Assembly (NCBI GenBank): GCA_051866635.1
Contig: JBJDXJ010000063.1
Location: 9,867-73,866, forward strand
Length of the DNA stretch: 64,000 nucleotides
DNA from: Clostridia bacterium
GTDB lineage: Bacteria; Bacillota; Clostridia; UMGS1883
Direction: 5' to 3'
The notes under the pieces were generated by a model. That model worked only from the letters and a program-made list of their open reading frames with translations. It did no database searches and was not told where the DNA came from. The stretch's first letter is position 1. Every line of letters starts with the position of its first letter. Positions 32,023 through 48,903 of the stretch are shown here, piece after piece. The position numbers were made by a program, and so were the translations under genes.

Positions 32023-32064
32023 ATATGTCCTCCTTTTCTTTTAGAATTTTCATTATGCGAAAAC

Positions 32065-34119
32065 TTAATTTCCAAACAAATCCGATTGTGTAAATATTCT
32101 CTGTGCCAAAATAATAGCCTGTTCTCTTGTTGCACTTGCATAACCTGATGCTTCTTGTTGAGAAGTTGTGTTTTTAGGTGCAAAATGAGTATCGCTTACA
32201 CCTTTAATAATACCATATTTAGACATGAAGTAAACAGATGGTTTTGCCCAAGTGGATATTTCATTATCATCAGCAAAAAGCTTAACGCCATCGGTCTGCA
32301 TATAGTATTCATTATCCGTAGCCATTGTCCAATTCGGAAAACTGTATTTTTTTATAACTCTGCAAAGCATTGTTGCAAGCTGCTCTCTATTTATAAAACT
32401 CAAAGGCTCATAAGTAGTGGTTGATGTACCCTGTGCCACTTCAATCTGATATGCTTTCTTAATTGCTTTTTCGTTATCATCGTATTGTATGTCAGTAAAT
32501 GTACAAGAAGGTGATTCCTCAACGCTTCTTTTTGCCAAAACTTCATAAAGTTGAACTGCAATAGCAGCGAACTCACCTCTGTTAACCTTTTTAGTCAAGT
32601 CAAAACCAATCATCACTTCCGGAATAAGATCATTTTCAAAAGCTTCTTCAATTTCAGGAGCTGCCCATGTTGATGTGGTAGAACCAAATGATGTAACAAC
32701 CGTCTGTTTATTATTTCCGCTATCATCAATTTTTGCAAATTTCCAACCGCTATTTTCCTCTAAAACTGCAAGCACAGTCGCACCAGGAATTATTGCTTCG
32801 TATTCTATTGGAATTATCTCATTCCCATTTTTGTCAACAATTCCTTCGTATCCATCTTTTGATACTACGAAATAATCTTTGTTAAACAATTCTATTGAAT
32901 TATACTGCATGGGTAAAATAATTTTTCCGTTTGAATTAATTAATCCAACAGTGTAAACATCATCTTTGTACTTATTTAATTTGTATAAATCATCTGTTAT
33001 CCAATCATTATTCAATAAGTCTTTTCCGCGTATTTCTCTCGGTTGCTCGATTGGCAAAACAACATTTCCAGTCATGTCAATCAAACCATAAAGCCCATCT
33101 TTTTGCACTGCAAATAAATTTTCAGAAAAAACTTCTATGCTATCATAAACTAATGGAACAATAATTTCATTATTACTGTTCATTGCACCGTGTTTATCAT
33201 TATCCTCAATAAAAATCAAATTTTTATCTGAAGAATTAATTTCTGAAATATAGTATTTACTTTCACTGATGCAATTTCCATTTAAGTCATATAAATAATC
33301 TTTTTTGTCAAATGTATAGCAATTAACTATATTGTTAGCAACAGAACCTACCCACTTATACTCAAATGGAATAATGGTATTGTTATTTGTATCAATAAGC
33401 CCCCATTGTCCAGACTTTTCTGCAGAAAATATGTTATCTTTAATGAAATTAATGCTTTCATATTCTGTTGGAATAATCACATTAGCATTATAATCGGCTA
33501 TGCCGCACAATCCGTTTTGAGTTATACGAATATATTTATCAGTATTGTACAAGGAATCTATTTCTTCGTAGTTTTCTAAAATAATGTTTCCATTGTTATC
33601 AAGAATGCGATACATACCATTTTTTCTTGCAACAATATAATTATTACTTGTACCTAACTTATCCATCCACTCATAACCTAAAGGAATAATCCAGTTTCCA
33701 TTTAAGTCCATAAGACCTTCTGCATCATTTTTTATCACTCTAATTCTACTTCCGTTAAGAATAGCCATGTTGTCTCCCCAACTAGCATCATATTCTATCG
33801 GAATAATCACATTTCCAGAAGTATCAAGAACACCTGTAAAATCGCCATCTATTACGCATACTAAATTCTCATTCATAGTCCAAAGCCTGTCATAAATGGC
33901 AGGAATCACAATTTTACCATATTGATTAACAAGTCCAGTTTTGTCACCATCCTCAAACGAAAAAAAGTCGCTGTTTGTACTCGAAGATGAAGATACTAAT
34001 GTGTAATCATATTGAGATTCGTTTGTCCAATCAAAAGTTGCTGCACTTACATTAATAGATGTAGTTGTAAGTAAAGTTACGCATATAAAGATTAATACTG
34101 TATTTAGGGTTTTTTTCAT
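32065..34119 (-). CDS. Secreted WG-repeat (KWG-like) protein with C-terminal triple SLH module
   Basis: Signal peptide. About 10 repeats of the G.(V/I)IP..YD....(F/W)..G.A pattern typical of WG-containing repeats. C-terminal 200 aa are near-identical to the downstream paralogue. Confidence 0.6.
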   Translation of the reverse strand: MKKTLNTVLIFICVTLLTTTSINVSAATFDWTNESQYDYTLVSSSSSTNSDFFSFEDGDKTGLVNQYGKIVIPAIYDRLWTMNENLVCVIDGDFTGVLDTSGNVIIPIEYDASWGDNMAILNGSRIRVIKNDAEGLMDLNGNWIIPLGYEWMDKLGTSNNYIVARKNGMYRILDNNGNIILENYEEIDSLYNTDKYIRITQNGLCGIADYNANVIIPTEYESINFIKDNIFSAEKSGQWGLIDTNNNTIIPFEYKWVGSVANNIVNCYTFDKKDYLYDLNGNCISESKYYISEINSSDKNLIFIEDNDKHGAMNSNNEIIVPLVYDSIEVFSENLFAVQKDGLYGLIDMTGNVVLPIEQPREIRGKDLLNNDWITDDLYKLNKYKDDVYTVGLINSNGKIILPMQYNSIELFNKDYFVVSKDGYEGIVDKNGNEIIPIEYEAIIPGATVLAVLEENSGWKFAKIDDSGNNKQTVVTSFGSTTSTWAAPEIEEAFENDLIPEVMIGFDLTKKVNRGEFAAIAVQLYEVLAKRSVEESPSCTFTDIQYDDNEKAIKKAYQIEVAQGTSTTTYEPLSFINREQLATMLCRVIKKYSFPNWTMATDNEYYMQTDGVKLFADDNEISTWAKPSVYFMSKYGIIKGVSDTHFAPKNTTSQQEASGYASATREQAIILAQRIFTQSDLFGN

Positions 34120-34154
34120 ATAAAATTCCTCTCGCTCTATTGTTGTATACTCAA

Positions 34155-35591
34155 TTAGTTCCCAAACATATTGCCTTTTTCAAATATTCTTTTTGCAAGA
34201 ATAATCGCCTGTTCTCTTGTTGCACTTGCATAACCCGATGCTTCTTGTTGAGAAGTTGTATTTTTAGGTGCAAAATGAGTATCGCTTACACCTTTAATGA
34301 TACCATTCTTTGACATGAAGTATACAGACGGTTTTGCCCAATCAGAGATTTCATTGTCGTCAGCAAATAATGTAGCATCATCAATATTCAAATCATATTG
34401 CGAATCTGTTGCCATTGTCCAATTAGGATAACTATATTTTTTGATAACTCTGCAAAGCATTGTTGCAAGCTGTTCTCTATTAATATTGCTAAGCGGTTCA
34501 TATGTTGTTGAAGATGTGCCTTGAGCTACTTCTATTTGATATGCTTTCTTAATTGCTTTTTCATTGTCATCATAATGAATATCAGCAAAAGTGCAGTTCT
34601 TTGATTCTTCAACACTTCTTTTTGCCAATGTTTCATACAACTGAACAGCAATTGCTGCAAATTCGCCTCTGTTGACTTTTTTTGTTAAGTCAAAATCGAG
34701 CATAACTTCGGGTATAAGATCGTTTTCAAAAGCCTCTTCAATTTCAGGGGCTGCCCATGTTGATACTTGAGCACCAAAAGATGTAGTTACAACTTCATTA
34801 CTATTTTTATTGTCAGTTGCAAATACTATTTTAGAATTTAACACGCCATCATAAAATGGTACCGGATATAAGTGTACATAATATGTACCAGGTCCCATAT
34901 GAGCAGTAATTGTGCATTTTGATGCTTCAACGCTGATACAGTCACTAAATGATGATTTATTCCCTCCTGCAATTAAGTCTTCTTCTGTATATAGCTCAGA
35001 TATAAAACATCCAATATTTGATGTACGCATAGTGTATGTGTATTTAAACTGTTCATCAGGAACTACTAACTTATACCATTTGTTATCATTCATTGAACTA
35101 AACTTTACTGTGTGTTCTTCGTTCAAGCCAATTTTAGTTGCATTCTCCCAGCCGGAAATGTTATTCGCAACTGTTCTTAATCTTATCTTTAATGTTTTAT
35201 TTCTTAAGCTTGCATTTTCAGAATTATTATAATCGAATTTTATATAACTCGAATCTATATTATCAATGTGAGGAACACTTATGTAGCCTGGTATAGAACT
35301 TACATTGTTTTGTGTCAGATGAACATAATTTCCTTTAGTGAATACATAATACTGCATAGCACCGCTATAATTGTCTGCTGAAACTTCAAATACGGTTGTT
35401 GTGTCTTTTTTTGAAACATCAATCTTAAAAAACAGATTTGAATCAAAATCGAATTCTGTCCATACATTTTCTGTAAGTAAAACTGCATTATTGTATTCGT
35501 TATCATTAAAACTTGATCCATTTGCCGATACAATTAATGTCCCTAAAAGCATAATCATCATAACTATTAATGCACTTGTAATTTTTTTCAT
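34155..35591 (-). CDS. Secreted protein with beta-rich N-terminal domain and C-terminal triple SLH module (paralogous tail to 32065..34119)
   Basis: Signal peptide. The C-terminal SFGAQVSTWAAPEIEEAF...FGN segment is nearly identical in protein and DNA to the neighbouring gene. Confidence 0.6.
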   Translation of the reverse strand: MKKITSALIVMMIMLLGTLIVSANGSSFNDNEYNNAVLLTENVWTEFDFDSNLFFKIDVSKKDTTTVFEVSADNYSGAMQYYVFTKGNYVHLTQNNVSSIPGYISVPHIDNIDSSYIKFDYNNSENASLRNKTLKIRLRTVANNISGWENATKIGLNEEHTVKFSSMNDNKWYKLVVPDEQFKYTYTMRTSNIGCFISELYTEEDLIAGGNKSSFSDCISVEASKCTITAHMGPGTYYVHLYPVPFYDGVLNSKIVFATDNKNSNEVVTTSFGAQVSTWAAPEIEEAFENDLIPEVMLDFDLTKKVNRGEFAAIAVQLYETLAKRSVEESKNCTFADIHYDDNEKAIKKAYQIEVAQGTSSTTYEPLSNINREQLATMLCRVIKKYSYPNWTMATDSQYDLNIDDATLFADDNEISDWAKPSVYFMSKNGIIKGVSDTHFAPKNTTSQQEASGYASATREQAIILAKRIFEKGNMFGN

Positions 35592-38777: not shown

Positions 38778-38822
38778 TTTTTGTGTAAAGTATTTACGAG
38801 ACAGATGATATATTAGAAATTA

Positions 38823-38858
38823 AAAAGGTTACGGTTTTGATTTTCCGTAACCTTTTTA
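38823..38858. terminator. Bidirectional hairpin terminator between mntP region and small zinc-ribbon gene
   Basis: Perfect 11-bp stem AAAGGTTACGG/CCGTAACCTTT with A/T runs on both sides. Confidence 0.6.
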
Positions 38859-38860
38859 AA

Positions 38861-39034
38861 TTACTGTGCAGGTTTTACTGCATTTGCTCCACATGAAGGG
38901 CAAAGATTATCTGCTCTATACACCTTATCAGGATATTTCTTTGCTCTTAAACAATGAATGCACCATGTAGAACCACACTTACTACAGCGGAACATATTTG
39001 CTCCCGAAGTTTTACATAAAGGACAATATGCCAT
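38861..39034 (-). CDS. Small zinc-ribbon protein (4x CxxC)
   Basis: MAYCPLCK...CSKCG...CIHC...CPSCG, 57 aa. AGAGGTG RBS 6 nt upstream. The track's 39052 start lies upstream of the RBS. Confidence 0.55.
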   Translation of the reverse strand: MAYCPLCKTSGANMFRCSKCGSTWCIHCLRAKKYPDKVYRADNLCPSCGANAVKPAQ

Positions 39035-39221
39035 AAAAATCACCTCTTGCATTTTATTATTATAACGCTGATAACAGTAATTATTTTAACATTGGCATTT
39101 TTTCTGCAACAATATCACTAAAATATTTCGCTACAACATCTTTCTGTTATTATTTTTATTATCTCGTTTCTACAATTTCTAACGAAAATTCACACAGTGC
39201 AGCATTGAGCTGCGTTTCTAA

Positions 39222-39698
39222 TTATTCTGCTTCGGCTTGTGTAAAATCACCATTTATCGTGCATGAATCAGTATTTATTTCTTGCGTAATATGCGGAGCA
39301 AAAATGACGTTATCATCTATCGTAATCTGAATATAATTATTGGGGATTGATATTTGCGAAACTTCGTATGTGGCTTGTTTGAATTTGTCTTGTCCTTGTT
39401 TTGTGAAATTCAATTTGATGTAATAACTATCGCTTTCATCTTGTCCTGCACTTACCGCACTTATATCATTTCCTGTTAGCAGAATATTATTTTTATAATC
39501 CGTAAATTTAAGAGCCTTATCGGAAAAATTCAACATTTCCGCCATCTGTGTAATATTGTCCTGCATGGGTAATGTAACTTCAATTTTATCATCACCTTTT
39601 ATTTCTGTCTTCGCATTGACAAATCCTAAGTTTTTCAGATAATCCATATGTTTTTCTTTCGCTGTTTGTATATCATTTTGGGGATTGTCGGAATGCAA
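39222..39698 (-). CDS. Orphan SecD-head (P1 domain)-like protein, no signal peptide, no RBS; possible frameshifted fragment
   Basis: Similarity to the SecD periplasmic head (…IEVTLP…, …VIFAPHITQEI..GDFTQAEAE). Starts 19 nt after the stop of the upstream lipoprotein gene, in a different frame, with no Shine-Dalgarno. Confidence 0.35.
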   Translation of the reverse strand: MHSDNPQNDIQTAKEKHMDYLKNLGFVNAKTEIKGDDKIEVTLPMQDNITQMAEMLNFSDKALKFTDYKNNILLTGNDISAVSAGQDESDSYYIKLNFTKQGQDKFKQATYEVSQISIPNNYIQITIDDNVIFAPHITQEINTDSCTINGDFTQAEAE

Positions 39699-39716
39699 CT
39701 TATAAACAATAGTAGT

Positions 39717-40532
39717 TCATGGTTTAGTTTTCGTATTTTGTAACAATTCCTTTTTGACATCTTCCAAACTATTATAAGTTCCAACCTCTTTTAAATCACT
39801 ATCAACGACAGCCCAAACCGTTTTTGATACATAAGGCGGTCCATATATTGCCGCTATTCTTGATAATGTATTTTGGTCTAAACTTGACCTTACAATATCA
39901 TAGTGACTCTCTGCCCATAACGAACTCCAATTATAAACCATTTCAGAAGATTGCGTTGTATAATATATAGGTACTGCATTGTTTTCTTCAAAAAGAACAG
40001 TAACATCATTATTGGATTCTATGTTGGGAAAAATTTTCATAGTTGAATTGCTTATAATATTTTTGGCTTTTTCAGTTGATATAATTCCGTTTGTTCCTGT
40101 TATTTCACGCAAATATTCTTCTGCATATTCTTTGTTTTCAAGGGCATTTACACCATATTGTTCTATGTATTTTTTAAATATAGCAATACTTTTAATGTTT
40201 GTATCTTTGTCACTATTCCATATTTCCTGCTGGACAACATTAAGGGGTGTATATCCAAATATCGGAACGACAAGTTTTTTTGTTTCTGAATTTACAATAA
40301 CAAAACCATAACAATCATCGATGTTTACTAAAACTAATTTATTGTTATCGCTTCTATCTAAGCCTTGTGTATCATTTTTCAAATCAAGAATTGTCTCAAT
40401 TTTACTTGATTCAAACTCATAACCATTCTCGTTGAGTATTTCTCTCAATCTTCTGTCAGACAGGTTATTTCCGCAAGCAGATAAACAAATAACTGTTAAA
40501 ATTGCCGTCAGATACATTACAATTTTTTTCAT
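39717..40532 (-). CDS. Lipoprotein of unknown function
   Basis: MKKIVMYLTAILTVICLSAC lipobox with GGAGGG RBS. The track's upstream extension to 40607 is unlikely. Ends 2 bp after the TIR gene stop. Confidence 0.55.
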   Translation of the reverse strand: MKKIVMYLTAILTVICLSACGNNLSDRRLREILNENGYEFESSKIETILDLKNDTQGLDRSDNNKLVLVNIDDCYGFVIVNSETKKLVVPIFGYTPLNVVQQEIWNSDKDTNIKSIAIFKKYIEQYGVNALENKEYAEEYLREITGTNGIISTEKAKNIISNSTMKIFPNIESNNDVTVLFEENNAVPIYYTTQSSEMVYNWSSLWAESHYDIVRSSLDQNTLSRIAAIYGPPYVSKTVWAVVDSDLKEVGTYNSLEDVKKELLQNTKTKP

Positions 40533-40608
40533 TTCATTTTCCCTCCAATTTTCATACTTTGAAAAATATATCTGTGTGTATAACCGATTATTATCTTTAT
40601 AAATCAAA

Positions 40609-42402
40609 TTACTTCTTAGGCTTATACCTGTTAATTAAATCGGAAATATAACTTAGTGACTGCATATTCAAGGATAAATCTATAGATTTACAAACTTTTT
40701 TTACGTCCAATTCAGTTAATGCCATATTCGTAAGGTTCAATGTTGTATCTTTCGTAATAGCATTTAGAATTAGTTTGGTATTTTTATCCAATTCTCTATT
40801 TCCGCTTTCCTCTTCAGCCAATATCATTTTTGCTTTTTGCTTTGCTATAATTGTATTATACTCTGAATACAATAATATTACAGGCATAAGAAATTCTGCA
40901 ACTATGGCAAGAAAAAATAATAACAAAACAAACTGCGGTGTCCCATTACGCCTATTTGCTATAATATTCCAAGAAACAAACAAAACGGGAATACATATAG
41001 CTTCGGTAATTACAAATTTTTTTAGCATAGCTTTTTTTGCCATATCTTTCAAGGCAAAATAATCGTTTTCAAGTTTTGTAAATTTTTGATGTAATGCTAA
41101 TTCGGACTGTTCTTTTTTAGCCTTTTCCTCTTGCTCTTTTGCCAATTTTTCTTCGGCAATTTTTTTATATTTAGCCTGTGCCGTTTCGCAATAGTTAATC
41201 AAAACCGGCTTAAAATTATCATCAGCAAATCGTAACGCATTTTGATAACTCATTGATTTACTATAATCAACTGCTCTGTTTGCAAGGTTTTCCTCTTTGT
41301 TAACTTTAATTTCAATCATTAGTTTTCCAAGATATGCACGAGCATTTTCCGGCTCGTGGTTTAACACTTGCTCTAAAAGCTCATCGGCTTTTTGCCATTC
41401 CGCAGCTTCAATAAGTATAAATGCTCTTTTCAATAGAGGCTCGGATTGAAAAACTTCCGTTTTATTGACAACATTAACATTTGGTTGTGCCGTTTCCTTT
41501 TGCAGTACCTTTTTTATTCCTCTTATCAAATCCTGAACAAATCCGATTTTGCTCATATCCTGACTTTGAAACATTGAAATCTCGTCCGGTAAATCATATG
41601 CGTCCATATCACGATAGCAAGGAATAATCATTTTTGACTTGTCACGTTTTGCCAAATCCAAAAATCTTGCCCATTCATTTTTAACCCAAATTGCATTAAA
41701 ATATTCTTTGCTTGTACCGACAACGAGCATTACCTTTGCGGAATTTAGGGCAGAAAATATGTACGGCTCATATTCCGTTCCGAGTTTGTCCTCCAAGGTT
41801 ATTCTGCTGAAAAATACCTTGTAACCCTCGTTAGTAAGCTGATAGTAAATATCTTGTGCAAGAGTTGAGTCGATTGTTCGTTTACCGCTGTTATCCGTTT
41901 CTTTATAGCATATGAAAATGTCATAGGGAGCTTCTTTAGAGGCTATCGACAATATATTTTTTTGTATTGCGGAAATTGCTTCGGCTTCCTGCTTATATAA
42001 GCTTTGAGCCTGATAATCGTCCGAATATTCAACAGCGGCTTTATAGTCCAGATCAGACAATATAGATTCATTCTGCACTCTGTGGCAGGTAGGCACTCGT
42101 TTATGCGTTTTCGGGTCCTCAACATATTCGATACCATACCTTGAAAGAACACATCCCCAGTATGCTTCTGCATTCCTATTATCCTCTGTTAAAATGCTTT
42201 CATAAGCCGAAAGAGCCTTATCAAACTCGTTTTGCAGTCTGAAATGGTTTGCTCTGTCAAACAAATTCAGTATTCGTTCATCATTAACATTCGGCAGCGT
42301 CATTGTACTTCCGCAACTGTCGCATACACCGACTTTCTGATTTTCGGTAATCTCAATATTACCTCCGCACATTTTACATTTTAATATTGCCATCTTTACC
42401 AC
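40609..42402 (-). CDS. Zinc-ribbon / TPR-like / TIR-domain protein with C-terminal transmembrane helices
   Basis: N-terminal CKMCG..CDSCG ribbon. TIR motifs YDIFICYKETD (betaA), KVFFS, and AIWVKNEWARFL (alphaC W..E with candidate catalytic Glu). After a coiled-coil there are 2-3 hydrophobic helices (ICIPVLFVSWNIIA, VLLLFFLAIVAEFLMPVILL). Confidence 0.7.
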   Translation of the reverse strand: MVKMAILKCKMCGGNIEITENQKVGVCDSCGSTMTLPNVNDERILNLFDRANHFRLQNEFDKALSAYESILTEDNRNAEAYWGCVLSRYGIEYVEDPKTHKRVPTCHRVQNESILSDLDYKAAVEYSDDYQAQSLYKQEAEAISAIQKNILSIASKEAPYDIFICYKETDNSGKRTIDSTLAQDIYYQLTNEGYKVFFSRITLEDKLGTEYEPYIFSALNSAKVMLVVGTSKEYFNAIWVKNEWARFLDLAKRDKSKMIIPCYRDMDAYDLPDEISMFQSQDMSKIGFVQDLIRGIKKVLQKETAQPNVNVVNKTEVFQSEPLLKRAFILIEAAEWQKADELLEQVLNHEPENARAYLGKLMIEIKVNKEENLANRAVDYSKSMSYQNALRFADDNFKPVLINYCETAQAKYKKIAEEKLAKEQEEKAKKEQSELALHQKFTKLENDYFALKDMAKKAMLKKFVITEAICIPVLFVSWNIIANRRNGTPQFVLLLFFLAIVAEFLMPVILLYSEYNTIIAKQKAKMILAEEESGNRELDKNTKLILNAITKDTTLNLTNMALTELDVKKVCKSIDLSLNMQSLSYISDLINRYKPKK

Positions 42403-43439
42403 ATCCGGTCCTCATACGATGTATTTTCAATTCCTTGTTCTCTTAATTTTTTCACCATTTTATCAAGTTTTCCACGCCAGAATTTTTTAAACCAAATGGT
42501 ATTACCAAACCATTTTACAATTGTTGGGCTTATTGCATAATATGTTCTGATAAACGCTCTGCCATACCAAGTTTCAGCTAATATATAGTCACGATAACGG
42601 CGAAGCGTCCAAACCTCAGGACAGTCATAAGAGCCATATACACAGGTAGCAACATAACAGCCACCGCTACTGAACGTCAATCCTTGATATGACGGGTTGT
42701 ATTTCTTTATTTTGTCCACATATGAAAGAATTTCCTTCTTTGATTCTTCACTGGTAAATTTGTAATTAATGCGTATATCAATTCCTTTTTCCCACGCTTT
42801 TGCACACATTGTACCGACTTCGGGGTGTTCAATATATCGTTTTTCAAGTTGATCTCCCAACTCAAATAATAATAAATATAAAGCCTTGCAGTTTTCTACA
42901 AAATCAGACTCAACACCACGTGTATCTTTAAATCTTTGGTAGTGATTTTGAGCATTGATGTATAATAATTGGGCAAAGTCTTCTGTTTTTGTGTATACCT
43001 GCACAAATGCGTTTGATTCCTCTTCGGATGTCGTATAATTGTCTATAAGATCAAAAACACTATTCAAGCAATTGGATAATTTATATGCCGCAGATGATAT
43101 TTCTCCTATTTTACATTGAGCAACATGAAAGTAAGTTGTATAATATGCTGCTTCCCAGCTGTTTGGATCCTCAACCAAAATCATATCATAATATTTTTCA
43201 GCTTGTGCATCATCATTGTTATCTTTTGCACGTCTTGCTACAGTGTATAAATTATTTAATCTTTCTAATTTATCTGCCGAAAAATTTGTATCAAATTTTT
43301 TTGCTTTTGATTTAACACTAACATTTCCGTGTGATACGGCATGCTCGTCTTTAAAAACCTCGCCACATTGCCGGCATATATATACATTGCCGTCTTTATC
43401 CAACTCGCCACCACAGGATTTGCATTCTAAATATGACAT
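42396..43439 (-). CDS. Zinc-ribbon / TPR-like protein with conserved Cys-rich C-terminal module (paralogous N-terminus to the TIR protein)
   Basis: CKSCGG..CRQCG ribbon. YYDMILVEDPNSWEAAYY parallels AYESILTEDNRNAEAYWG of the TIR protein. C-terminal GGCYVATCVYGSYDCPEVWTLRRYRD. 7-bp overlap with the TIR gene start. Confidence 0.55.
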   Translation of the reverse strand: MSYLECKSCGGELDKDGNVYICRQCGEVFKDEHAVSHGNVSVKSKAKKFDTNFSADKLERLNNLYTVARRAKDNNDDAQAEKYYDMILVEDPNSWEAAYYTTYFHVAQCKIGEISSAAYKLSNCLNSVFDLIDNYTTSEEESNAFVQVYTKTEDFAQLLYINAQNHYQRFKDTRGVESDFVENCKALYLLLFELGDQLEKRYIEHPEVGTMCAKAWEKGIDIRINYKFTSEESKKEILSYVDKIKKYNPSYQGLTFSSGGCYVATCVYGSYDCPEVWTLRRYRDYILAETWYGRAFIRTYYAISPTIVKWFGNTIWFKKFWRGKLDKMVKKLREQGIENTSYEDRMW

Positions 43440-43503
43440 TTCAAAAATACTCTCCTTCTATGTATGATTTTTACTTAGTTTACTATTCCATAGATTTCCT
43501 AAC

Positions 43504-43944
43504 TTAATTTGAATATGTTGTCTTTAATTCAACCTTTTTGGTTTCTTCACAATTTGGGCAGTAAAAACCACCAGTAAAGCTACCGGGGGTGGTTACAGTA
43601 GTACTTGGTTCTGTATATCCGCAACTATCACATTTCTTTTTATAAACTACTTTGTTTTCATGATTATCTTCAATAATTATTGCATTAGAAATTGCAACTG
43701 TAGTACTGGATTGTTTATTTTCTTGTACTTGATTGTAATTTCCGTAATAATTATTTGTAGATGTTGAATTTGTACTTTTTTTATCAGTAGACTCATTCGG
43801 TGTTTCTACATAATTATCAACTGATTCGCTATATTGCTGATTTGAATCATCTGTGTTTTGATATGTTGAATCGCCTTGTGGTGTGCAAGCTGTTACACAA
43901 ATCATCGTAAAAATCACTAAAATGTAAGATATATGTTTTTGCAT
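43504..43944 (-). CDS. Lipoprotein with low-complexity linker and C-terminal zinc ribbon
   Basis: Lipobox ICVTAC, S/T/N-rich linker, CDSCG...CPNC. Confidence 0.5.
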   Translation of the reverse strand: MQKHISYILVIFTMICVTACTPQGDSTYQNTDDSNQQYSESVDNYVETPNESTDKKSTNSTSTNNYYGNYNQVQENKQSSTTVAISNAIIIEDNHENKVVYKKKCDSCGYTEPSTTVTTPGSFTGGFYCPNCEETKKVELKTTYSN

Positions 43945-43948
43945 TTAA

Positions 43949-44386
43949 TTACCTCCAATAATTTTCCTTTTCTTTTATAAATTCTTTATGTTTTTGTTCC
44001 GCCTTGCTGTCAACTTCATTGATATATTCACTGCCTGCCGTTATAGCGATTATTCTTATTATAAATACCGCTAAAACTGCAATATGTATTACAAGCGTCC
44101 ATAATACATACAAAGAAATCAAGCAAGCAATTACCGAAAAAAACACACTGATTATTGAATATATTACAGCTGTATAAACAAACGCATGACCTTGGGGGGT
44201 TTTTGTAGTTTCTCTCTTACCGAACACACAGAGGCTCAATGCTATACCTATTATTGCAATCAAGGTAAATATATACGAAACAATAAATGTGTCCGTAATT
44301 GGAACAACTATAAACAATAGAGATACAACTACCGCCATAATAATGGCTGATATAATAATTTTTGTGTTATTATTCATTTGTACCAC
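43949..44386 (-). CDS. Small polytopic membrane protein (4 TM)
   Basis: 145 aa, four hydrophobic helices. Overlaps the SPFH gene by 17 bp (translational coupling). Confidence 0.5.
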   Translation of the reverse strand: MVQMNNNTKIIISAIIMAVVVSLLFIVVPITDTFIVSYIFTLIAIIGIALSLCVFGKRETTKTPQGHAFVYTAVIYSIISVFFSVIACLISLYVLWTLVIHIAVLAVFIIRIIAITAGSEYINEVDSKAEQKHKEFIKEKENYWR

Positions 44387-45623
44387 CTTCTATTCTATAC
44401 CCACATTCTAAGCAGAATTTAGCACCATTAGGTACTTCCTTTCCGCAGTTGGAACAAATAAGTTGTAATTTACCGCCACACTCCATACAGAATTTACCTT
44501 TTGGTGTTTTGCTTCCGCATTGAGGACATATCATTTCATTGTCTGAAAGCTGTTCAATCTTCGTTCCGCACTCGAGACAGAATTTTGCATTTTCGGGTAA
44601 GGTATTACCGCACTTCGGACATATTGAAGTTGATTTTGATGTATTCATATTTACTGCATTTCCTATGCTGTCATTTACAACTCCGCCGACAGCACTGCCA
44701 ACGCTTGTCATGACTCCAAGCCCTATACCCAAGCCAGCCATATTTCCTCCGCCTTCATTTTTAGCAAAGCCTTCGGCAACATCAAAACCTCGTTCCTGTT
44801 GATATGTATAGCCTTCAATCTGACGTTTTGCAGCCATGCCTTCCGCTTCTAAAATCATTTTCTGCTTTTCGGTTTCTTGCTTAATAATATCAACATTTTG
44901 TTGCAATTTTGCTTCTGCAATATCTGCGTACTGTCTGAAATGCAAACTCTTAAATCGCTTATATGTACTGTCATCTTCGGGTTTTACAATGGTCGTTACA
45001 AAGAAATGCACCAACGAAACACCGTATTCCTCAAAATCAGGAATAAGTAATTTATGTAAGCTTTCCGAAATTTCATTAAGTTTTTCATCAATTTGAAAAA
45101 TGTTTATTCCGTTATTCCGGATATATGTTGACAAATACGTTTTGAACCTTATCATAAGAAAAGCTCTAAACTTTTGTGTCAAGCCTGCTTGTGTAAGTAC
45201 ATTTTCCGTGCCGACTATTTTTACCAAGAGTTTTTTTGCATCGGAAACTCTCAAACTCATTTCGCCGCTTGCACCTATTTGAAGCGGAAAATTGTATGTG
45301 GGTTCCATATATTCAATTTTACTGTCCGTCCCCCACCGAATGTTCATTTGCTCGGTTTTATTTATAAAGTATACCTCGCAATGAAATGGTGTTTTATCAT
45401 TAAAAGGCTTATTAAAAAACTTTCTGATAAGCGGAATATTTTGAGTTTCTAATGTATGTCTGCCTGCTTCAAAACTATCAAGAAGTTGTCCGTTCATGTA
45501 GAAAACCGCTTCTTGCGATTCGTGAACGATAAGTTGTGTTGTTGTATTAAAGTCTTCACAAGGGTGTTTCCATACAAAGGTTGAGTTATCACCCTCATAC
45601 TTAATTACATCTGCTATTTGCAC
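44370..45623 (-). CDS. SPFH/band-7-like domain protein with three tandem C-terminal double zinc ribbons
   Basis: N-terminal about 300 aa resemble the SPFH-domain family. C-terminus has three CP(K/Q)CG...C.ECG repeats. Confidence 0.55.
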   Translation of the reverse strand: MQIADVIKYEGDNSTFVWKHPCEDFNTTTQLIVHESQEAVFYMNGQLLDSFEAGRHTLETQNIPLIRKFFNKPFNDKTPFHCEVYFINKTEQMNIRWGTDSKIEYMEPTYNFPLQIGASGEMSLRVSDAKKLLVKIVGTENVLTQAGLTQKFRAFLMIRFKTYLSTYIRNNGINIFQIDEKLNEISESLHKLLIPDFEEYGVSLVHFFVTTIVKPEDDSTYKRFKSLHFRQYADIAEAKLQQNVDIIKQETEKQKMILEAEGMAAKRQIEGYTYQQERGFDVAEGFAKNEGGGNMAGLGIGLGVMTSVGSAVGGVVNDSIGNAVNMNTSKSTSICPKCGNTLPENAKFCLECGTKIEQLSDNEMICPQCGSKTPKGKFCMECGGKLQLICSNCGKEVPNGAKFCLECGYRIEGGTNE

Positions 45624-45756
45624 GCTATACTCATATCCTTTCCAGATCGTTTACTAAAAGTGTACTGTAAGAGAGCTCTTTATATTTGCAGTCTTGATAT
45701 ATTTTGCAATTGCTTTTGCTATTTTATTGAGTTAACATTTGGCTCATACGCATCTT

Positions 45757-45800
45757 CTTTAAATAGCTCATTTCACCTAAACAAATAGCTCATTTCACCT
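45757..45800. repeat. Perfect 22-bp tandem duplication (AAATAGCTCATTTCACCTAAAC x2) spanning the stop codon of gene 45773..46819
   Basis: Two identical adjacent 22-mers. The first copy encodes the last residues and TGA stop of the minus-strand gene. Confidence 0.8.
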
Positions 45801-46819
45801 AAACCGCTTTGCAATTTTATTCCCAATATACCTTCATCTTCATACATGTAAAAATAACTACCATTGTAGTAGAGTGAATAAGCATAAATACCATCTATTT
45901 CATCTATGTACTCCCATGTTCCGCCCCGAACAATTCTACCAAAATCATCAATCTCATCTAATAAATCTTTAACTTCCAAACTGTCCCGAAATGTACCATT
46001 ATAAGCATTATAAGACGGCATGCTGACAGACATATGTCCATCACCTTCAAATGTGTATTGAACACCGGTAGCTTTTTTCCATGTGCCGATAATTGCCACT
46101 TTGCTTTCAATACTTTTTGCGAGTTTTTTCGCTTCACTTTTTGTTTTTTCATCAGCATTAACATTCTTCTCTATGTCTTTAAGACATTCGTCCGCAAAAA
46201 TATATCCACCATCTTCTATAAATTTTTTTGCCGAATTAAGATTTTTTATTGCCATCTCTCGTTGAGCTTCTACAAAATCATCAACGTACTTACCATTCGG
46301 GTAGTAGTCCATGTACACATCATAAAATCTATTAATTTCATATTCATCATCATTACAATTCAACAATTCCGTATAGAGGTCTTCTTCTACATCTTCTTTT
46401 AATGCATTAATCTTTTTTATATATCGTTTTTTATTGGAATAGGTTTCACTAAATTCTTCAATATCTTCCAATGTATTACGGTAATCGTCATGTTCTTTTT
46501 TTACCGGATATTGATATTCATTGACAATTTCCTTATACAATTTAGCTTCAGGATTAGGAATTAAAATCATGAGAATTACAAAGGCTACCGAAATAACAGC
46601 TATAATAGGCAGGATTTTTTTCTTAAGCGGTTTGACATTTCTGGAATAATCTAATTCATAGGAACTTTCCTCTTGTTCTGTTACTTCTGCATTTACAGTT
46701 ATGGTTTCTTCCTTTTTTATGTTCTTCTCTTGCATTTTGTCATCCGATTCATCAGCCTGACATTTTTCACAAAAGCCATTCTCCATAAATTTTCCGCACT
46801 TAGGACAAATACTTGACAT
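45773..46819 (-). CDS. Zinc-ribbon / single-TM protein with extracytoplasmic domain of unknown function
   Basis: N-terminal CPKCG...CEKC, acidic linker, transmembrane helix (ILPIIAVISVAFVILMILI), about 250 aa external domain. Confidence 0.5.
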   Translation of the reverse strand: MSSICPKCGKFMENGFCEKCQADESDDKMQEKNIKKEETITVNAEVTEQEESSYELDYSRNVKPLKKKILPIIAVISVAFVILMILIPNPEAKLYKEIVNEYQYPVKKEHDDYRNTLEDIEEFSETYSNKKRYIKKINALKEDVEEDLYTELLNCNDDEYEINRFYDVYMDYYPNGKYVDDFVEAQREMAIKNLNSAKKFIEDGGYIFADECLKDIEKNVNADEKTKSEAKKLAKSIESKVAIIGTWKKATGVQYTFEGDGHMSVSMPSYNAYNGTFRDSLEVKDLLDEIDDFGRIVRGGTWEYIDEIDGIYAYSLYYNGSYFYMYEDEGILGIKLQSGLGEMSYLFR

Positions 46820-47103
46820 ATTAACATCTCCCTCTGATTATTTATTCTTTATTTATTTTTGCATCCGTCCGTTTTCATAAGAATTGTGCTTACAAGGACA
46901 CATGCGAAGCACCAAAGAAATACCGGCACATATCACCAAAACAGCAGTAATACTATCACACAAATTTGTCTTGGCAGTTTATTACATATTATCACACAAC
47001 CTAACAAATTGCAACTATTTTTTGATATAATTTTTAACTATATTTTTGAATGTTTATTTAATTGGCAAAATGGGATAGAATTATAGCAATAGGGGGTTAT
47101 GCT

Positions 47104-47277
47104 ATGGATTTTATTATAAAAAAGACTACAAGTTCCAACCGCACGGTCAGAATGCCTGACGAATTAATCGAAACTATCAGCACCATTGCCAACGAAAAGG
47201 GCATTTCCTTCAATCAGCTTGTTATTCAGTGCTGTGAATATGCGTTGGACCACCTTAAGGACGAGAAAACAGAATAA
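47104..47277 (+). CDS. Ribbon-helix-helix (CopG/Arc-like) DNA-binding protein
   Basis: RTVRMPDELIETISTIANEKGISFNQLV: beta-strand then two helices. GGGGG RBS. The track's 47062 start is probably an extension. Confidence 0.55.
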   Translation: MDFIIKKTTSSNRTVRMPDELIETISTIANEKGISFNQLVIQCCEYALDHLKDEKTE

Positions 47278-47304
47278 AACGTCTTTTTTGTTTTATTATA
47301 GTCA

Positions 47305-47362
47305 AAAGCACAGAAAAAGTCCCGGACAAATTGTCCAAGACTTTTCTGTGCTTTTTATTTTA
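47305..47362. terminator. Hairpin terminator between convergent RHH gene and Ser/Thr kinase gene
   Basis: AAAGCACAGAAAAAGTC...GACTTTTCTGTGCTTT stem followed by TTTTATTTT. Confidence 0.55.
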
Positions 47363-48832
47363 ATATACAGGTACTAATCTATTCTCCTCCAATGCATAGC
47401 CTGTTATATCGCCCAAATCATACCATTCAACGTTAAACTTTTTTGTATATGCAGTCATATAGAAGGAATACTCTTTTGAAAACATATCTCCTTCGCAGAG
47501 ATAAAAGCCTGTTTCCTCATCGTATTTTATACACCATGCAATACAATAATTAAAATTATTGTAAAACTGATGCTCGATAACCCCGATGCATCCTTCGTTA
47601 AGCCCTATCAACAGCTCGGGCACATCGTCATAGTCCATATCACAACAGATTATATCGGCGTTTTTTCTGTCTGGCGGATTAAAAAGGCTGTAATCGTACT
47701 GCCCATTGTAGGCAAATTCACCTGTGAAATCGTGTCCGTAGTCATCATTAAGATAAACCTTAAGTTTGCCGTCTGAAAGGGTTATGTCGGCATTGACCAA
47801 AGTATTGTTTTCTCCCAGCTTTATTTTGCCTTTTTTATTTCCGTCCTCTAAAAACAGCAGATGGTCCCAGGGCTTGTACATTGAAAAAATCGCCACATGA
47901 TTATATGTAGGGTATTTGCTGTACTCCTCCATTTTGCTGTCAGATGCAAATCCGGTAAAATATGTATCTTCATCTAATGTGATTTCCGCTTCTGTATCTT
48001 TTTCATCTATTTCGGCAGTTATGCTATTGGAAGGTTTCTCCATATAGAGGGCATTATCCGTTGGGTTTGTGGGCTGTTTTTTGTCAAAGGCGGCGTTACT
48101 TTTTCCATTTATCAGACAAATGCAGGCAACAAGTGCCAAAAGGGCAGATGCGGCACATATTGCAGGAGGTATTATACGGCAAAATATTATTGCACGATGT
48201 AAGGCTTTAACGTTTTTATACCGCTGGGACGGGTCAAGCCGCTTGCATTTTTCCGATATTTTGTGCAAACAACCCTTTATACCTAAGTAATCCAATACAG
48301 CCTGTATTGTTGCACCAAAGGCATATATATCTGTTTTAAAATCTGTGGGCATCATGCCGTACTGTTCAATAGGGGCATAACCGAAGGTGCCCATTTTTTC
48401 GGTATCTTGCCGTATTTCAGACCTGTAAATGCGGGCAATATCGTAATCAATCAACCATATGTGATTTGACGCATCAACAAGTATATTGTCGGGCTTAATA
48501 TCTCTGTGGATAATATTTTGACTGTGTAGGACTGCTAATGCATCTGTCAATTGTAGCATAATGGAGCGTATTTCTTTTTTTGTGAACTTACGACCTTCCT
48601 CCATAAGTGTTGATAAGGACTTGCCTTCAATATATTCCTCAACAACAACTGTTTTATCGCCAAATTCCACAGAGAAAATCTTTGGTATGTTGGGGCTTGA
48701 AATTTTTTGAAGGTTTTTGTAAATTTCACGCTTGTCCCCTTCTATTTCCCTTTTGAGATATTTTTTGCCGTTATCTGTACAGAGAACAATTTTCTGCCTG
48801 TCATTTTGTTTTAAAATCTCACATTCTTTCAA
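47360..48832 (-). CDS. Hanks-type serine/threonine protein kinase with TM helix and extracellular domain
   Basis: HRDIKPDNILV catalytic loop, DYDIARIY (DFG-equivalent), GTFGYAPIE activation segment. Transmembrane segment (IIPPAICAASALLALVACICLI). No PASTA repeats. Confidence 0.85.
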   Translation of the reverse strand: MKECEILKQNDRQKIVLCTDNGKKYLKREIEGDKREIYKNLQKISSPNIPKIFSVEFGDKTVVVEEYIEGKSLSTLMEEGRKFTKKEIRSIMLQLTDALAVLHSQNIIHRDIKPDNILVDASNHIWLIDYDIARIYRSEIRQDTEKMGTFGYAPIEQYGMMPTDFKTDIYAFGATIQAVLDYLGIKGCLHKISEKCKRLDPSQRYKNVKALHRAIIFCRIIPPAICAASALLALVACICLINGKSNAAFDKKQPTNPTDNALYMEKPSNSITAEIDEKDTEAEITLDEDTYFTGFASDSKMEEYSKYPTYNHVAIFSMYKPWDHLLFLEDGNKKGKIKLGENNTLVNADITLSDGKLKVYLNDDYGHDFTGEFAYNGQYDYSLFNPPDRKNADIICCDMDYDDVPELLIGLNEGCIGVIEHQFYNNFNYCIAWCIKYDEETGFYLCEGDMFSKEYSFYMTAYTKKFNVEWYDLGDITGYALEENRLVPVY

Positions 48833-48903
48833 TCAAATCCCTCCTTGCAAAATGTTACAATTTGTATTATCATAATTATATTAAATTTAAGGAGTGTTTG
48901 TCA

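What the first reader, a model, noticed from the sequence alone, without database searches (positions are those of the whole stretch)
42396..43439. Paralogous zinc-ribbon/TPR head shared with the TIR protein, fused instead to a conserved Cys-rich C-terminal module; 7-bp overlap implies translational coupling
Both proteins start with a CxxC-x(10-17)-CxxC ribbon followed by similar helical repeats (YYDMILVEDPNSWEAAYY versus AYESILTEDNRNAEAYWG). This gene ends with GGCYVATCVYGSYDCPEVWTLRRYRD...W-rich tail, which reads as a distinct conserved module whose function I cannot assign. The shared head with different tails is reminiscent of sensor-effector modularity.
Basis: seen in the sequence. Interest (0 to 1): 0.6.

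Follow-up and report, generated by a model that had tools for sequence, protein, structure and literature searches.

The report
Zinc-ribbon adaptor with CFI-box tail
This gene encodes a cytoplasmic protein whose tail is an already named but unstudied, extremely conserved domain (CFI-box) and whose zinc-ribbon head is shared with the neighbouring TIR enzyme; both belong to a recurrent, undescribed operon built around a membrane-scaffold (SPFH) protein that may be a membrane-linked stress or anti-phage module.

Summary
The ORF (42396..43439, minus strand, 347 aa) is real. Its exact sequence is in GenBank as "CFI-box-CTERM domain-containing protein" from a Clostridia MAG.

- **Tail:** residues 261-329 match NCBIfam NF041770 (71 bits, cutoff 40). 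The tail is always C-terminal and about 75% identical across phyla. It is attached to many unrelated N-terminal parts, including TIR, TerD, LRR, Sel1, RCC1 and cold-shock domains.
- **Head:** the head really is homologous to the head of the downstream TIR protein (profile-profile E 1.9e-14; controls 0.03 or worse).
- **Overlap:** the 7-bp overlap is probably an artefact of choosing a GTG start. Homologues begin at the ATG 2 nt after the stop.
- **Synteny:** a SamI/YdjI-like SPFH protein and a membrane protein lie upstream of 34 of 41 head-TIR loci and about a quarter of CFI loci. Head-TIR-CFI-box fusions occupy the same operon slot elsewhere.

Best reading (inferred): the protein is a repeat-scaffold adaptor or sensor subunit of an SPFH-centred membrane module that has a TIR NADase output. 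No biochemical function is shown. No paper in the searched library mentions the domain or the operon.

The parts
42396..43439 (-). Gene for the 347-aa ZnR / helical / CFI-box protein (stop codon at 42396-42398)
   Evidence: ORF list and sequence. A 100% identical GenBank protein is named CFI-box-CTERM domain-containing protein.
43131..43439 (-). Head, aa 1-103: zinc ribbon (C6,C9,C22,C25), disordered linker (aa 31-54) and one TPR-like hairpin (aa 55-103, ARRAK...YYDMILxxDPxSWEA)
   Evidence: hhalign against the TIR-head family gives E 1.9e-14, with controls. AF2 places strands at 12-22 and helices at 55-107. Mean identity to homologues is 38% for the ribbon and 59% for the hairpin.
42699..43130 (-). 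Central all-helical domain, aa 104-247: the least conserved part (32% identity) and a weakly TPR-like solenoid
   Evidence: AF2 pLDDT is about 95. Foldseek finds only generic TPR hits, E 1.6e-3 or worse and TM below 0.3. Pfam finds nothing. In L112 an LRR_5 domain replaces it.
42399..42665 (-). CFI-box C-terminal module, aa 259-347: GGCYVATxVYGSYDCP..VWTLRRYRD.. with an aromatic and basic tail
   Evidence: NF041770 matches aa 261-329, 71.2 bits against a cutoff of 40. Mean identity to homologues is 75%. 31 columns are invariant across 142 diverse proteins. Codon positions 1+2 are 79% identical against 41% at position 3. No TM segment is predicted.
42391..42402 (-). Gene junction: TAA stop (42396-42398), a 2-nt spacer and the ATG at 42393-42391. 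The alternative GTG at 42402-42400 would give the 7-bp overlap
   Evidence: Window sequence. Homologue N-termini and junctions are in L001, L088 and L112.
40609..42393 (-). Downstream gene: ZnR-TPR head / TIR_2 / TPR / TM-hairpin protein (594 aa from the ATG)
   Evidence: Pfam TIR_2 matches aa 162-284 at E 8.5e-12, together with TPR models. Hydrophobic segments lie at aa 458-515. No PADLOC model hits it.
44370..45623 (-). SamI/YdjI-like SPFH protein: Band_7_1, a Gly-rich low-complexity stretch and C-terminal zinc ribbons
   Evidence: Pfam Band_7_1 at E 2.8e-38, plus Zn_Ribbon_1 and DZR. A homologue lies upstream of 34 of 41 head-TIR loci and 14 of 57 CFI loci.
43949..44386 (-). Small multi-pass membrane protein, the conserved partner that follows the SPFH gene
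   Evidence: Hydropathy. It belongs to neighbour cluster 2, found in 14 loci. It is also present in L112-L115 and other metagenome loci.
43504..43944 (-). Predicted lipoprotein with a C-terminal CxxC...CxxC; a variable member of the operon
   Evidence: ORF with a signal peptide and a lipobox-like VTAC. A homologue was found only in L001/L005.

Best explanation
The gene encodes a soluble cytoplasmic adaptor or sensor subunit of an operon built around a SamI/YdjI-like SPFH scaffold and its membrane partner. The window order is SPFH, TM protein, lipoprotein, this gene, then the TIR gene.

The protein has three parts:
1. A zinc-ribbon plus TPR-hairpin head, homologous to the head of the adjacent TIR protein. 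I infer that it is the common docking module, binding either the SPFH/TM platform or the partner's head.
2. A poorly conserved helical repeat domain. In relatives this slot is filled by LRR, Sel1 or RCC1 repeats, so I infer it is the variable ligand- or partner-binding part.
3. The CFI-box, a constant C-terminal coupling module about 90 aa long. I infer that it tethers or assembles the protein at the inner face of the membrane or on the complex. In the window's TIR protein the same position is taken by a TM hairpin. In other genomes the TIR protein carries the CFI-box itself.

Proposed output (inferred): membrane or infection stress sensed at the SPFH/TM platform switches on the TIR domain, which is probably an NADase. 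The Glu of the WVKNEW motif is conserved.

Shown here: family membership, head homology, synteny, fusions and purifying selection.
Inferred only: docking, membrane targeting, NADase activity and any defence role.
For: Identity:
- NF041770 hit, 71 bits against a cutoff of 40.
- The identical GenBank protein carries the same name.

Head homology:
- BLASTP E 7e-6 and hhalign E 1.9e-14 with clean controls.

Operon:
- The SPFH (Band_7_1 + DZR) protein and TM protein recur upstream of the CFI family in Clostridia and Bacteroidales. This holds in 23 of 80 loci, or 14 of 57 loci with enough flank.
- They recur upstream of head-TIR genes in 34 of 41 loci.

Fusions and slot equivalence:
- P0489 and P0494 are head-TIR-...-CFI-box proteins, 54% identical to the window's TIR over 412 aa.
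- P0489 sits directly after SPFH and two small genes in L088.
- L112, whose TIR head is 86% identical to the window's, has ZnR-LRR_5-CFI-box in the slot of this gene, with the same TAA-NN-ATG junction.

Tail:
- It is always C-terminal, on at least 32 N-terminal types.
- Position 3 identity is 0.41 against 0.79 for positions 1+2, and GC3 ranges from 0.19 to 0.90. This indicates old purifying selection.
- Two tail helices are strongly amphipathic and cationic: muH 0.53-0.59, net charge +3 and +6.

Precedent:
- B. subtilis SamI (Band_7_1, low-complexity region, Zn finger, no anchor) is recruited by the zinc-ribbon membrane protein SamG and by SamH. It works in membrane-stress signalling (PMC8581546; bioRxiv 10.64898/2026.02.06.704340).
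Against: - Most family members have no SPFH or TIR neighbour and sit in unrelated, sometimes housekeeping, contexts: about 57 of 80 loci, for example L002.
- Stand-alone CFI-box proteins of 113-141 aa exist. They are hard to explain as adaptors.
- Close relatives of the window operon (L113-L115) lack this gene altogether, so it is dispensable for the SPFH-TM-TIR core.
- No PADLOC or PHROG model hits any core gene.
- No PspA gene is in the island.
- The CFI-box modelled alone is low-confidence, pLDDT 56. The 31 invariant columns are more than a simple lipid-binding helix would need.
- No interaction was tested.
Confidence: 0.4

Rival explanations
1. The CFI-box is itself the effector, for example a membrane-perturbing or otherwise toxic 90-aa domain. 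The variable N-terminal parts (TPR-like, LRR, Sel1, RCC1, TerD, CSD) would be sensors. The gene would then be a one-protein sensor-effector that merely lies next to a TIR gene.
For: - The tail is constant while the repeat domains vary, the layout typical of immune sensors.
- The tail helices are amphipathic and cationic.
- CFI-box genes are frequent on plasmids and in mobile contexts.
- Many loci have no conserved partner.
Against: - Stand-alone CFI-box proteins without a sensor exist in ordinary chromosomal contexts, such as L091 between the ATP synthase genes and uvrC. An unregulated toxin there is unlikely.
- TIR-CFI fusions would carry two effectors.
- No TM segment is predicted.
- No similarity to known effector families in Pfam, PADLOC or Foldseek.
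Confidence: 0.2
2. The protein works independently of its neighbours as a general cytoplasmic factor. The CFI-box would bind a universal cellular component such as nucleic acid or a conserved protein. Adjacency to the TIR gene in this window would be an accident of a variable island.
For: - TIR is present in only 3 of 80 loci, and SPFH is absent from about 70-75% of loci.
- The tail is about 70-75% identical from Clostridia to Bacteroidales, which points to a universal partner.
- CSD-ZnR-CFI-box fusions exist.
- The composition is aromatic and basic: 22% W/Y/F and 15 K+R.
Against: - The same SPFH-TM context recurs in two phyla.
- TIR-CFI fusions occupy the same operon slot.
- The head is homologous to the neighbour's head.
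- L112 has a ZnR-LRR-CFI-box gene in the same slot.
Confidence: 0.25
3. The CFI-box is a processing or sorting signal, as the '-CTERM' name suggests. The invariant Cys after Gly-Gly would be a site of cleavage, lipidation or attachment by a dedicated enzyme.
For: - A Cys is invariant at the domain start, usually preceded by Gly.
- The domain is strictly C-terminal.
- The name follows other CTERM sorting domains (my own knowledge of NCBIfam naming, not tested here).
Against: - There is no signal peptide and no TM helix.
- The fusion partners are cytoplasmic domains: zinc ribbon, TIR, CSD, TerD.
- No conserved candidate processing enzyme appears in 80 neighbourhoods.
- The domain is a roughly 90-aa helical unit with 31 invariant residues, far more than a sorting tag needs.
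Confidence: 0.1

Closest known systems
NCBIfam NF041770, CFI-box-CTERM domain-containing proteins
   Same: The tail scores 71 bits against a cutoff of 40. It is C-terminal and starts with the Cys motif. The GenBank copy of this protein already carries the name.
   Different: - This is a distinct, very conserved subtype: CYVATxVYGSYDCP with a second invariant Cys, a W-rich end, and about 20 further conserved residues beyond the 69-position model.
- Proteobacterial plasmid members are only 33-41% identical.
- No function is attached to the family, and no paper in the searched library mentions it.
B. subtilis PspA-SamGHI (YdjGHI) membrane-stress module
   Same: - The upstream SPFH protein has SamI's architecture: Band_7_1, a low-complexity linker, C-terminal zinc fingers and no anchor (bioRxiv 10.64898/2026.02.06.704340).
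- It is followed by a small membrane protein and by a roughly 340-aa protein with an N-terminal zinc ribbon. This parallels SamH and SamG (PMC8581546).
   Different: - There is no PspA gene in the island.
- SamG is an integral membrane protein ending in ...MGGGF (primer sequence in PMC8581546). This protein has no TM segment and ends in a CFI-box.
- Homology to SamG or SamH could not be tested.
- The TIR output has no counterpart in SamGHI.
TIR-domain defence systems (Thoeris and other TIR NADase systems)
   Same: The neighbouring gene has a TIR_2 domain with the conserved Glu-containing motif. Such genes sit in variable, recombinase-rich neighbourhoods.
   Different: - No PADLOC model hits any gene of the operon core.
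- There is no ThsA-like or other known signal-binding effector.
- Association with SPFH is not mentioned in the TIR survey I checked.
Adaptor-domain logic of conflict systems (a shared domain on adjacent genes coupling effector and sensor) and repeat-based immune sensors (LRR/TPR/WD40)
   Same: Two adjacent genes share a homologous terminal module. The variable repeat domains are flanked by constant modules.
   Different: - There is no STAND or other NTPase.
- The shared module is a zinc ribbon plus a TPR hairpin, not a Death-like or other named adaptor domain.
- The comparison rests on my own knowledge of that literature, not on a test here.

Membership tests
NF041770 CFI-box-CTERM | Profile score above the curated cutoff | tested here: met
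   71.2 bits against a cutoff of 40, E 4.6e-20. Residues 261-329 cover model positions 1-69 of 69.
NF041770 CFI-box-CTERM | Domain lies at the C-terminus and starts with the invariant Cys motif (CFIATA-like) | tested here: met
   CYVATC starts at C263 and the domain runs to the end of the protein. In all 150 listed relatives the match ends within 3 residues of the C-terminus.
   Pfam gives 0 families for this protein at E <= 0.01. The TIR neighbour does hit TPR models.
   - The AF2 model is all-helical.
- The best Foldseek hits are designed or natural TPR proteins, but with E 1.6e-3 or worse and TM below 0.3.
- hhalign of the hairpin against consensus TPR gives Prob 61-78.
Shared ZnR-TPR head with the TIR protein family | Profile-profile homology beyond generic zinc ribbon or TPR | tested here: met
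   E 1.9e-14, Prob 98.3. Reversed or shuffled controls give E 0.03 or worse. The other zinc-ribbon proteins of the window give Prob 33 or less.
SamGHI / Psp-type SPFH module | Band_7_1 SPFH protein with a low-complexity linker and C-terminal zinc finger, next to a membrane protein | tested here: met
   Pfam hits on the ORF at 44370..45623. Hydropathy of the ORF at 43949..44386.
SamGHI / Psp-type SPFH module | PspA (ESCRT-III-like) gene in the operon | tested here: not met
   None of the ten island proteins hits a PspA family in Pfam or NCBIfam.
SamGHI / Psp-type SPFH module | This protein is homologous to SamG | not testable with these tools
Its published termini (MIISYKCPNC... and ...MGGGF, from primers in PMC8581546) show an N-terminal ribbon but no CFI-box.
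Known anti-phage systems (Thoeris and others) | Match to a defence-system protein model | tested here: not met
   PADLOC gives no family for this protein or for the TIR, SPFH, TM or lipoprotein genes. Only the nearby kinase hits generic kinase models.
TIR NADase (neighbouring gene) | TIR domain with a catalytic Glu | tested here: inconclusive
   - TIR_2 scores 46 bits against a cutoff of 28.
- The Glu in WVKNEW is conserved in P0489 and P0494.
- Assigning it as the catalytic residue rests on general knowledge of TIR enzymes. Activity was not tested.

The most novel reading that the evidence does not exclude
The operon type SPFH scaffold, membrane protein, then one or more proteins with the zinc-ribbon/TPR head (carrying TIR, CFI-box, or both) is an undescribed membrane-surveillance immune or stress system. 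In it an SPFH assembly acts as the sensing platform. The CFI-box would be a new, very widespread coupling or effector domain (about 13,000 protein clusters) that plugs varied sensor and enzyme domains into that platform.
Probability: 0.3. Interest if true: 0.75.

Novelty: new variant of a known kind. Interest (0 to 1): 0.55.

Why it matters
- **The tail.** The CFI-box ends about 13,000 clusters of bacterial proteins and is held nearly constant across phyla, yet it has no known function or literature. This locus and its relatives give it a testable context.
- **Its context.** It is genetically coupled to SamI-like SPFH scaffolds and is fused, or adjacent, to TIR enzymes.
- **SPFH and TIR.** The tight linkage of head-TIR genes to SPFH genes (34 of 41 loci) suggests a route from membrane scaffolds to NAD-consuming immunity. 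I did not find this in current defence-system catalogues or in the papers I searched.
- **Wider link.** If confirmed, it would connect SPFH/flotillin biology and the Psp/Sam membrane-stress field to TIR immunity.

Tried and rejected
- **Pfam, PHROGs and PADLOC on the protein:** no hits.
- **Sequence search of the PDB with the family profile:** only zinc-ribbon noise, E 0.1 or worse.
- **Foldseek of the full-length model against PDB and BFVD:** only weak generic TPR-like matches. The single viral hit (E 1.1e-3, TM 0.22) was not pursued.
- **AF2 of the CFI-box alone:** low confidence (pLDDT 56), so it was not used for a fold search.
- **Literature searches for 'CFI-box' and for SPFH + TIR + anti-phage:** nothing found.
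- **Phage origin:** one hit in 50,697 phage records and 16 loci in 2.9 million viral contigs. The family is mainly cellular.
- **Recent DNA transfer or a recombination cassette as the reason for tail conservation:** rejected, because third codon positions are saturated and GC3 follows the host.
- **TM anchor or secretion signal in the tail:** rejected by hydropathy.
- **Intein or Hedgehog-like autoprocessing at Gly-Cys:** considered because of the G-C-F/Y motif. Set aside because the domain is short and predicted helical, not a Hint fold. Not tested further.
- **Defence-island enrichment around SPFH-TIR loci:** recombinases and a few defence-model hits are mixed with housekeeping genes, and there was no background comparison. 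I treat it as suggestive only.
Full report
**The observation.** The minus-strand ORF at 42396..43439 encodes 347 aa and has a good ribosome-binding site. Its exact sequence is in GenBank, from a Clostridia MAG, as "CFI-box-CTERM domain-containing protein". The protein starts with a four-Cys ribbon (C6, C9, C22, C25). It ends with GGCYVATCVYGSYDCPEVWTLRRYRD followed by a stretch rich in W, Y, F, K and R (22% aromatic, 15 K+R in 87 residues). Hydropathy finds no TM segment or signal peptide.

**The tail.**
- NCBIfam NF041770 (CFI_box_CTERM) matches residues 261-329 at 71.2 bits against a cutoff of 40. Pfam, PHROGs and PADLOC have nothing.
- An exhaustive HMMER search with the last 94 residues found 12,975 cluster representatives with E <= 1e-3 and 1,722 with E <= 1e-30. 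In all 150 listed, the match ends at the protein's C-terminus, in proteins of 138 to 787 aa.
- Their N-terminal parts fall into at least 32 BLAST groups.
- Some carry recognisable domains:
  - TIR_2 with TPR (P0489, P0494);
  - TerD (P0421);
  - Sel1 (P0412);
  - RCC1 (P0462).
- On proteobacterial plasmids there are cold-shock-domain / zinc-ribbon / CFI-box proteins.
- Stand-alone proteins of 113-141 aa also exist on long contigs.
- Across 142 such proteins 31 columns are invariant, including C263 and C275. C268 varies.
- The conservation is old purifying selection, not recent transfer. Among 77 species the tail is 70% identical in protein and 79% at codon positions 1+2, but only 41% at position 3. 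GC3 ranges from 0.19 to 0.90.
- No paper in the searched library contains "CFI-box".

**The head.**
- Pairwise BLASTP between this protein and the downstream TIR protein gives 28% identity over 99 residues, E 7e-6.
- I built family profiles for both heads. The TIR-type head has more than 1,451 relatives. hhalign of the two profiles gives Prob 98.3 and E 1.9e-14 over 81 columns, covering residues 1-103 here and 1-83 of the TIR protein.
- Reversed or shuffled columns give E 0.03 or worse. The other zinc-ribbon proteins of the window do not match.
- The ribbon (E 7e-12) and the hairpin (E 1e-7) both contribute. The hairpin is close to consensus TPR (E 2e-5), so part of its similarity is generic.
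- Within the family, the hairpin (59% mean identity) and the tail (75%) are conserved. The central helical domain (32%) is not.

**Structure.**
- AF2 with 50 homologues gives mean pLDDT 86. It shows ribbon strands, a disordered linker at 39-50, helices from 55 to 247, and four helices in the tail.
- Foldseek finds only weak TPR-like matches in PDB and BFVD.
- The tail modelled alone is low-confidence, pLDDT 56.
- Two tail helices are strongly amphipathic and cationic. This is compatible with interfacial membrane binding but also with a helical bundle.

**The junction.**
- The 7-bp overlap needs the GTG at 42402.
- TIR homologues begin MA(I/L)(L/F)KC, as do the called starts in L001, L088 and L112. 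The likely start is therefore the ATG at 42393, 2 nt after the TAA.
- L112 has the same TAA-NN-ATG arrangement. L001 has a 17-nt gap.
- Tight co-transcription is clear. Overlap-based coupling is not.

**Context.**
- The gene lies in a run of closely spaced minus-strand genes: ZnR-TM protein, SPFH, TM protein, lipoprotein, this gene, TIR, lipoprotein. The run sits in a segment of about 10 kb with GC 0.32-0.36, between housekeeping genes at about 0.40.
- The SPFH protein combines Band_7_1, a Gly-rich low-complexity stretch and C-terminal zinc ribbons. This is the architecture described for B. subtilis SamI/YdjI. SamI has no anchor of its own. The zinc-ribbon membrane protein SamG and SamH recruit it for membrane-stress signalling (PMC8581546; bioRxiv 10.64898/2026.02.06.704340).

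**Synteny of the CFI family.**
- A genome scan found at least 598 species with a full-length relative. They are mostly gut or rumen Clostridia and Bacteroidales.
- In the 80 loci fetched, the SPFH homologue lies just upstream in 23, or 14 of the 57 with at least 3 kb of flank. A membrane-protein family lies between them in 14. A TIR gene is present in 3.
- The rest have no recurrent neighbour.

**Synteny of the head-TIR family.**
- A metagenome scan with the TIR-type head gave 79 loci. Of the 41 with at least 3 kb upstream, 34 carry the SPFH homologue.
- Close relatives of the window operon (L113-L115, TIR 81-83% identical) read SPFH, TM, TIR with no CFI gene.
- The closest, L112 (86%), has a ZnR-LRR_5-CFI-box protein in the slot of this gene.
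- In L088 the slot after SPFH and two small genes holds a single head-TIR-...-CFI-box fusion, P0489.

**Interpretation.**
- The stable element is the pair of SPFH scaffold and membrane protein.
- It is followed by one or more client proteins that share the zinc-ribbon/TPR head and carry different tails: TIR with a TM hairpin, TIR with repeats, TIR with a CFI-box, or repeats with a CFI-box.
- The fusions and the slot equivalence argue that the CFI-box protein and the TIR protein act in one assembly when both are present.
- I therefore read this protein as an adaptor or sensor subunit with a constant head for docking, a variable repeat domain, and a constant CFI-box for tethering or assembly. 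The TIR domain would be the enzymatic output.
- All mechanistic steps are inferred.
- The main counter-evidence is that most family members lack these neighbours, that minimal CFI-box proteins exist, and that the gene is dispensable in close relatives.
- A defence role is only suggested. The closest relative's cassette sits on a serine-recombinase element that splits a cotJC-like gene. Other copies are on mobilisable elements and plasmids. Neighbours of SPFH-TIR loci include recombinases and some defence-model hits. No known defence model matches the core genes.

**Novelty.**
- The protein is a member of a named but uncharacterised domain family, so the module itself is not new.
- Not found in the libraries or papers I searched: the homology of the two heads, the linkage of both head families to SamI-like SPFH genes, and the TIR-CFI-box fusions.
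- I rate it a new variant of known kinds (SPFH membrane-stress modules and TIR systems), of moderate interest.

Noticed in passing
L001 133-522, 12336-13949, 13873-14523 (closest relative of the window operon): The kinase-SPFH-CFI-TIR cassette and a large serine recombinase lie between two Mn-catalase (cotJC-like) fragments next to cotJB and cotJA. It looks like a recombinase-borne intervening element that splits a sporulation gene.
   Followed up: no
window 38800-48900: A low-GC segment (0.32-0.36 against about 0.40) carries the whole operon. Housekeeping genes flank it: MntP, YqeY and GH43 on one side, DUF711 and SpoU on the other. No recombinase is in the window copy.
   Followed up: partly
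L112 6730-7998: In the closest TIR relative the gene upstream of TIR is ZnR-LRR_5-CFI-box (422 aa) instead of ZnR-helical-CFI-box. The middle domain has been swapped while both ends are kept.
   Followed up: yes
L131, L142, L166, L173, L183, L189: Head-TIR genes occur as tandem arrays of 3-4 paralogues in several metagenome loci. L108 has two head-TIR-RCC1 giants followed by a stand-alone head.
   Followed up: no
L085 3731-4315; L087 5082-5723; L086 1333-2184: - Proteobacterial plasmids carry cold-shock-domain / zinc-ribbon / CFI-box proteins. One lies next to a Lar anti-restriction gene, an integrase and PRTRC genes.
- A 5.2-kb Acinetobacter plasmid carries a CFI-box protein as its only cargo besides the rep and mob genes.
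   Followed up: partly
window 47360-48832 (-): A membrane-anchored Ser/Thr kinase at the edge of the island hits PADLOC mad6 and PD-T4-6 models, but only through the generic kinase domain. A homologue (50% identity) is also in L001.
   Followed up: no
window 47062-47277 (+); L112 4748-5074; L088 3985-4245; L089 3727-3969: A small divergent regulator-like gene (HTH or RHH type) sits upstream of the SPFH or CFI gene in several loci. It may be the operon's regulator.
   Followed up: no
window 39222-39698 (-): An orphan 158-aa ORF consists only of a SecD/F P1-head domain. It lies downstream of the TIR gene and a lipoprotein gene.
   Followed up: no
proteins P0002-P0013 (relatives 61-70% identical): Some close relatives carry a 50-160-aa N-terminal extension with an L7/L12-like segment and EF-Tu domain-2 Pfam hits in front of the zinc ribbon.
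   Followed up: no
CP069348.1 30711-31739 (Clostridioides phage pCD1602_4): This is the only hit in the phage collection. It is a full-length relative, 26% identical over 95% of the query, on a 132-kb phage-plasmid record without annotation.
   Followed up: no
window 27859-35591 (-): A cluster of three large SLH-domain surface proteins (VWA/Big_2, WG repeats) lies just outside the island.
   Followed up: no
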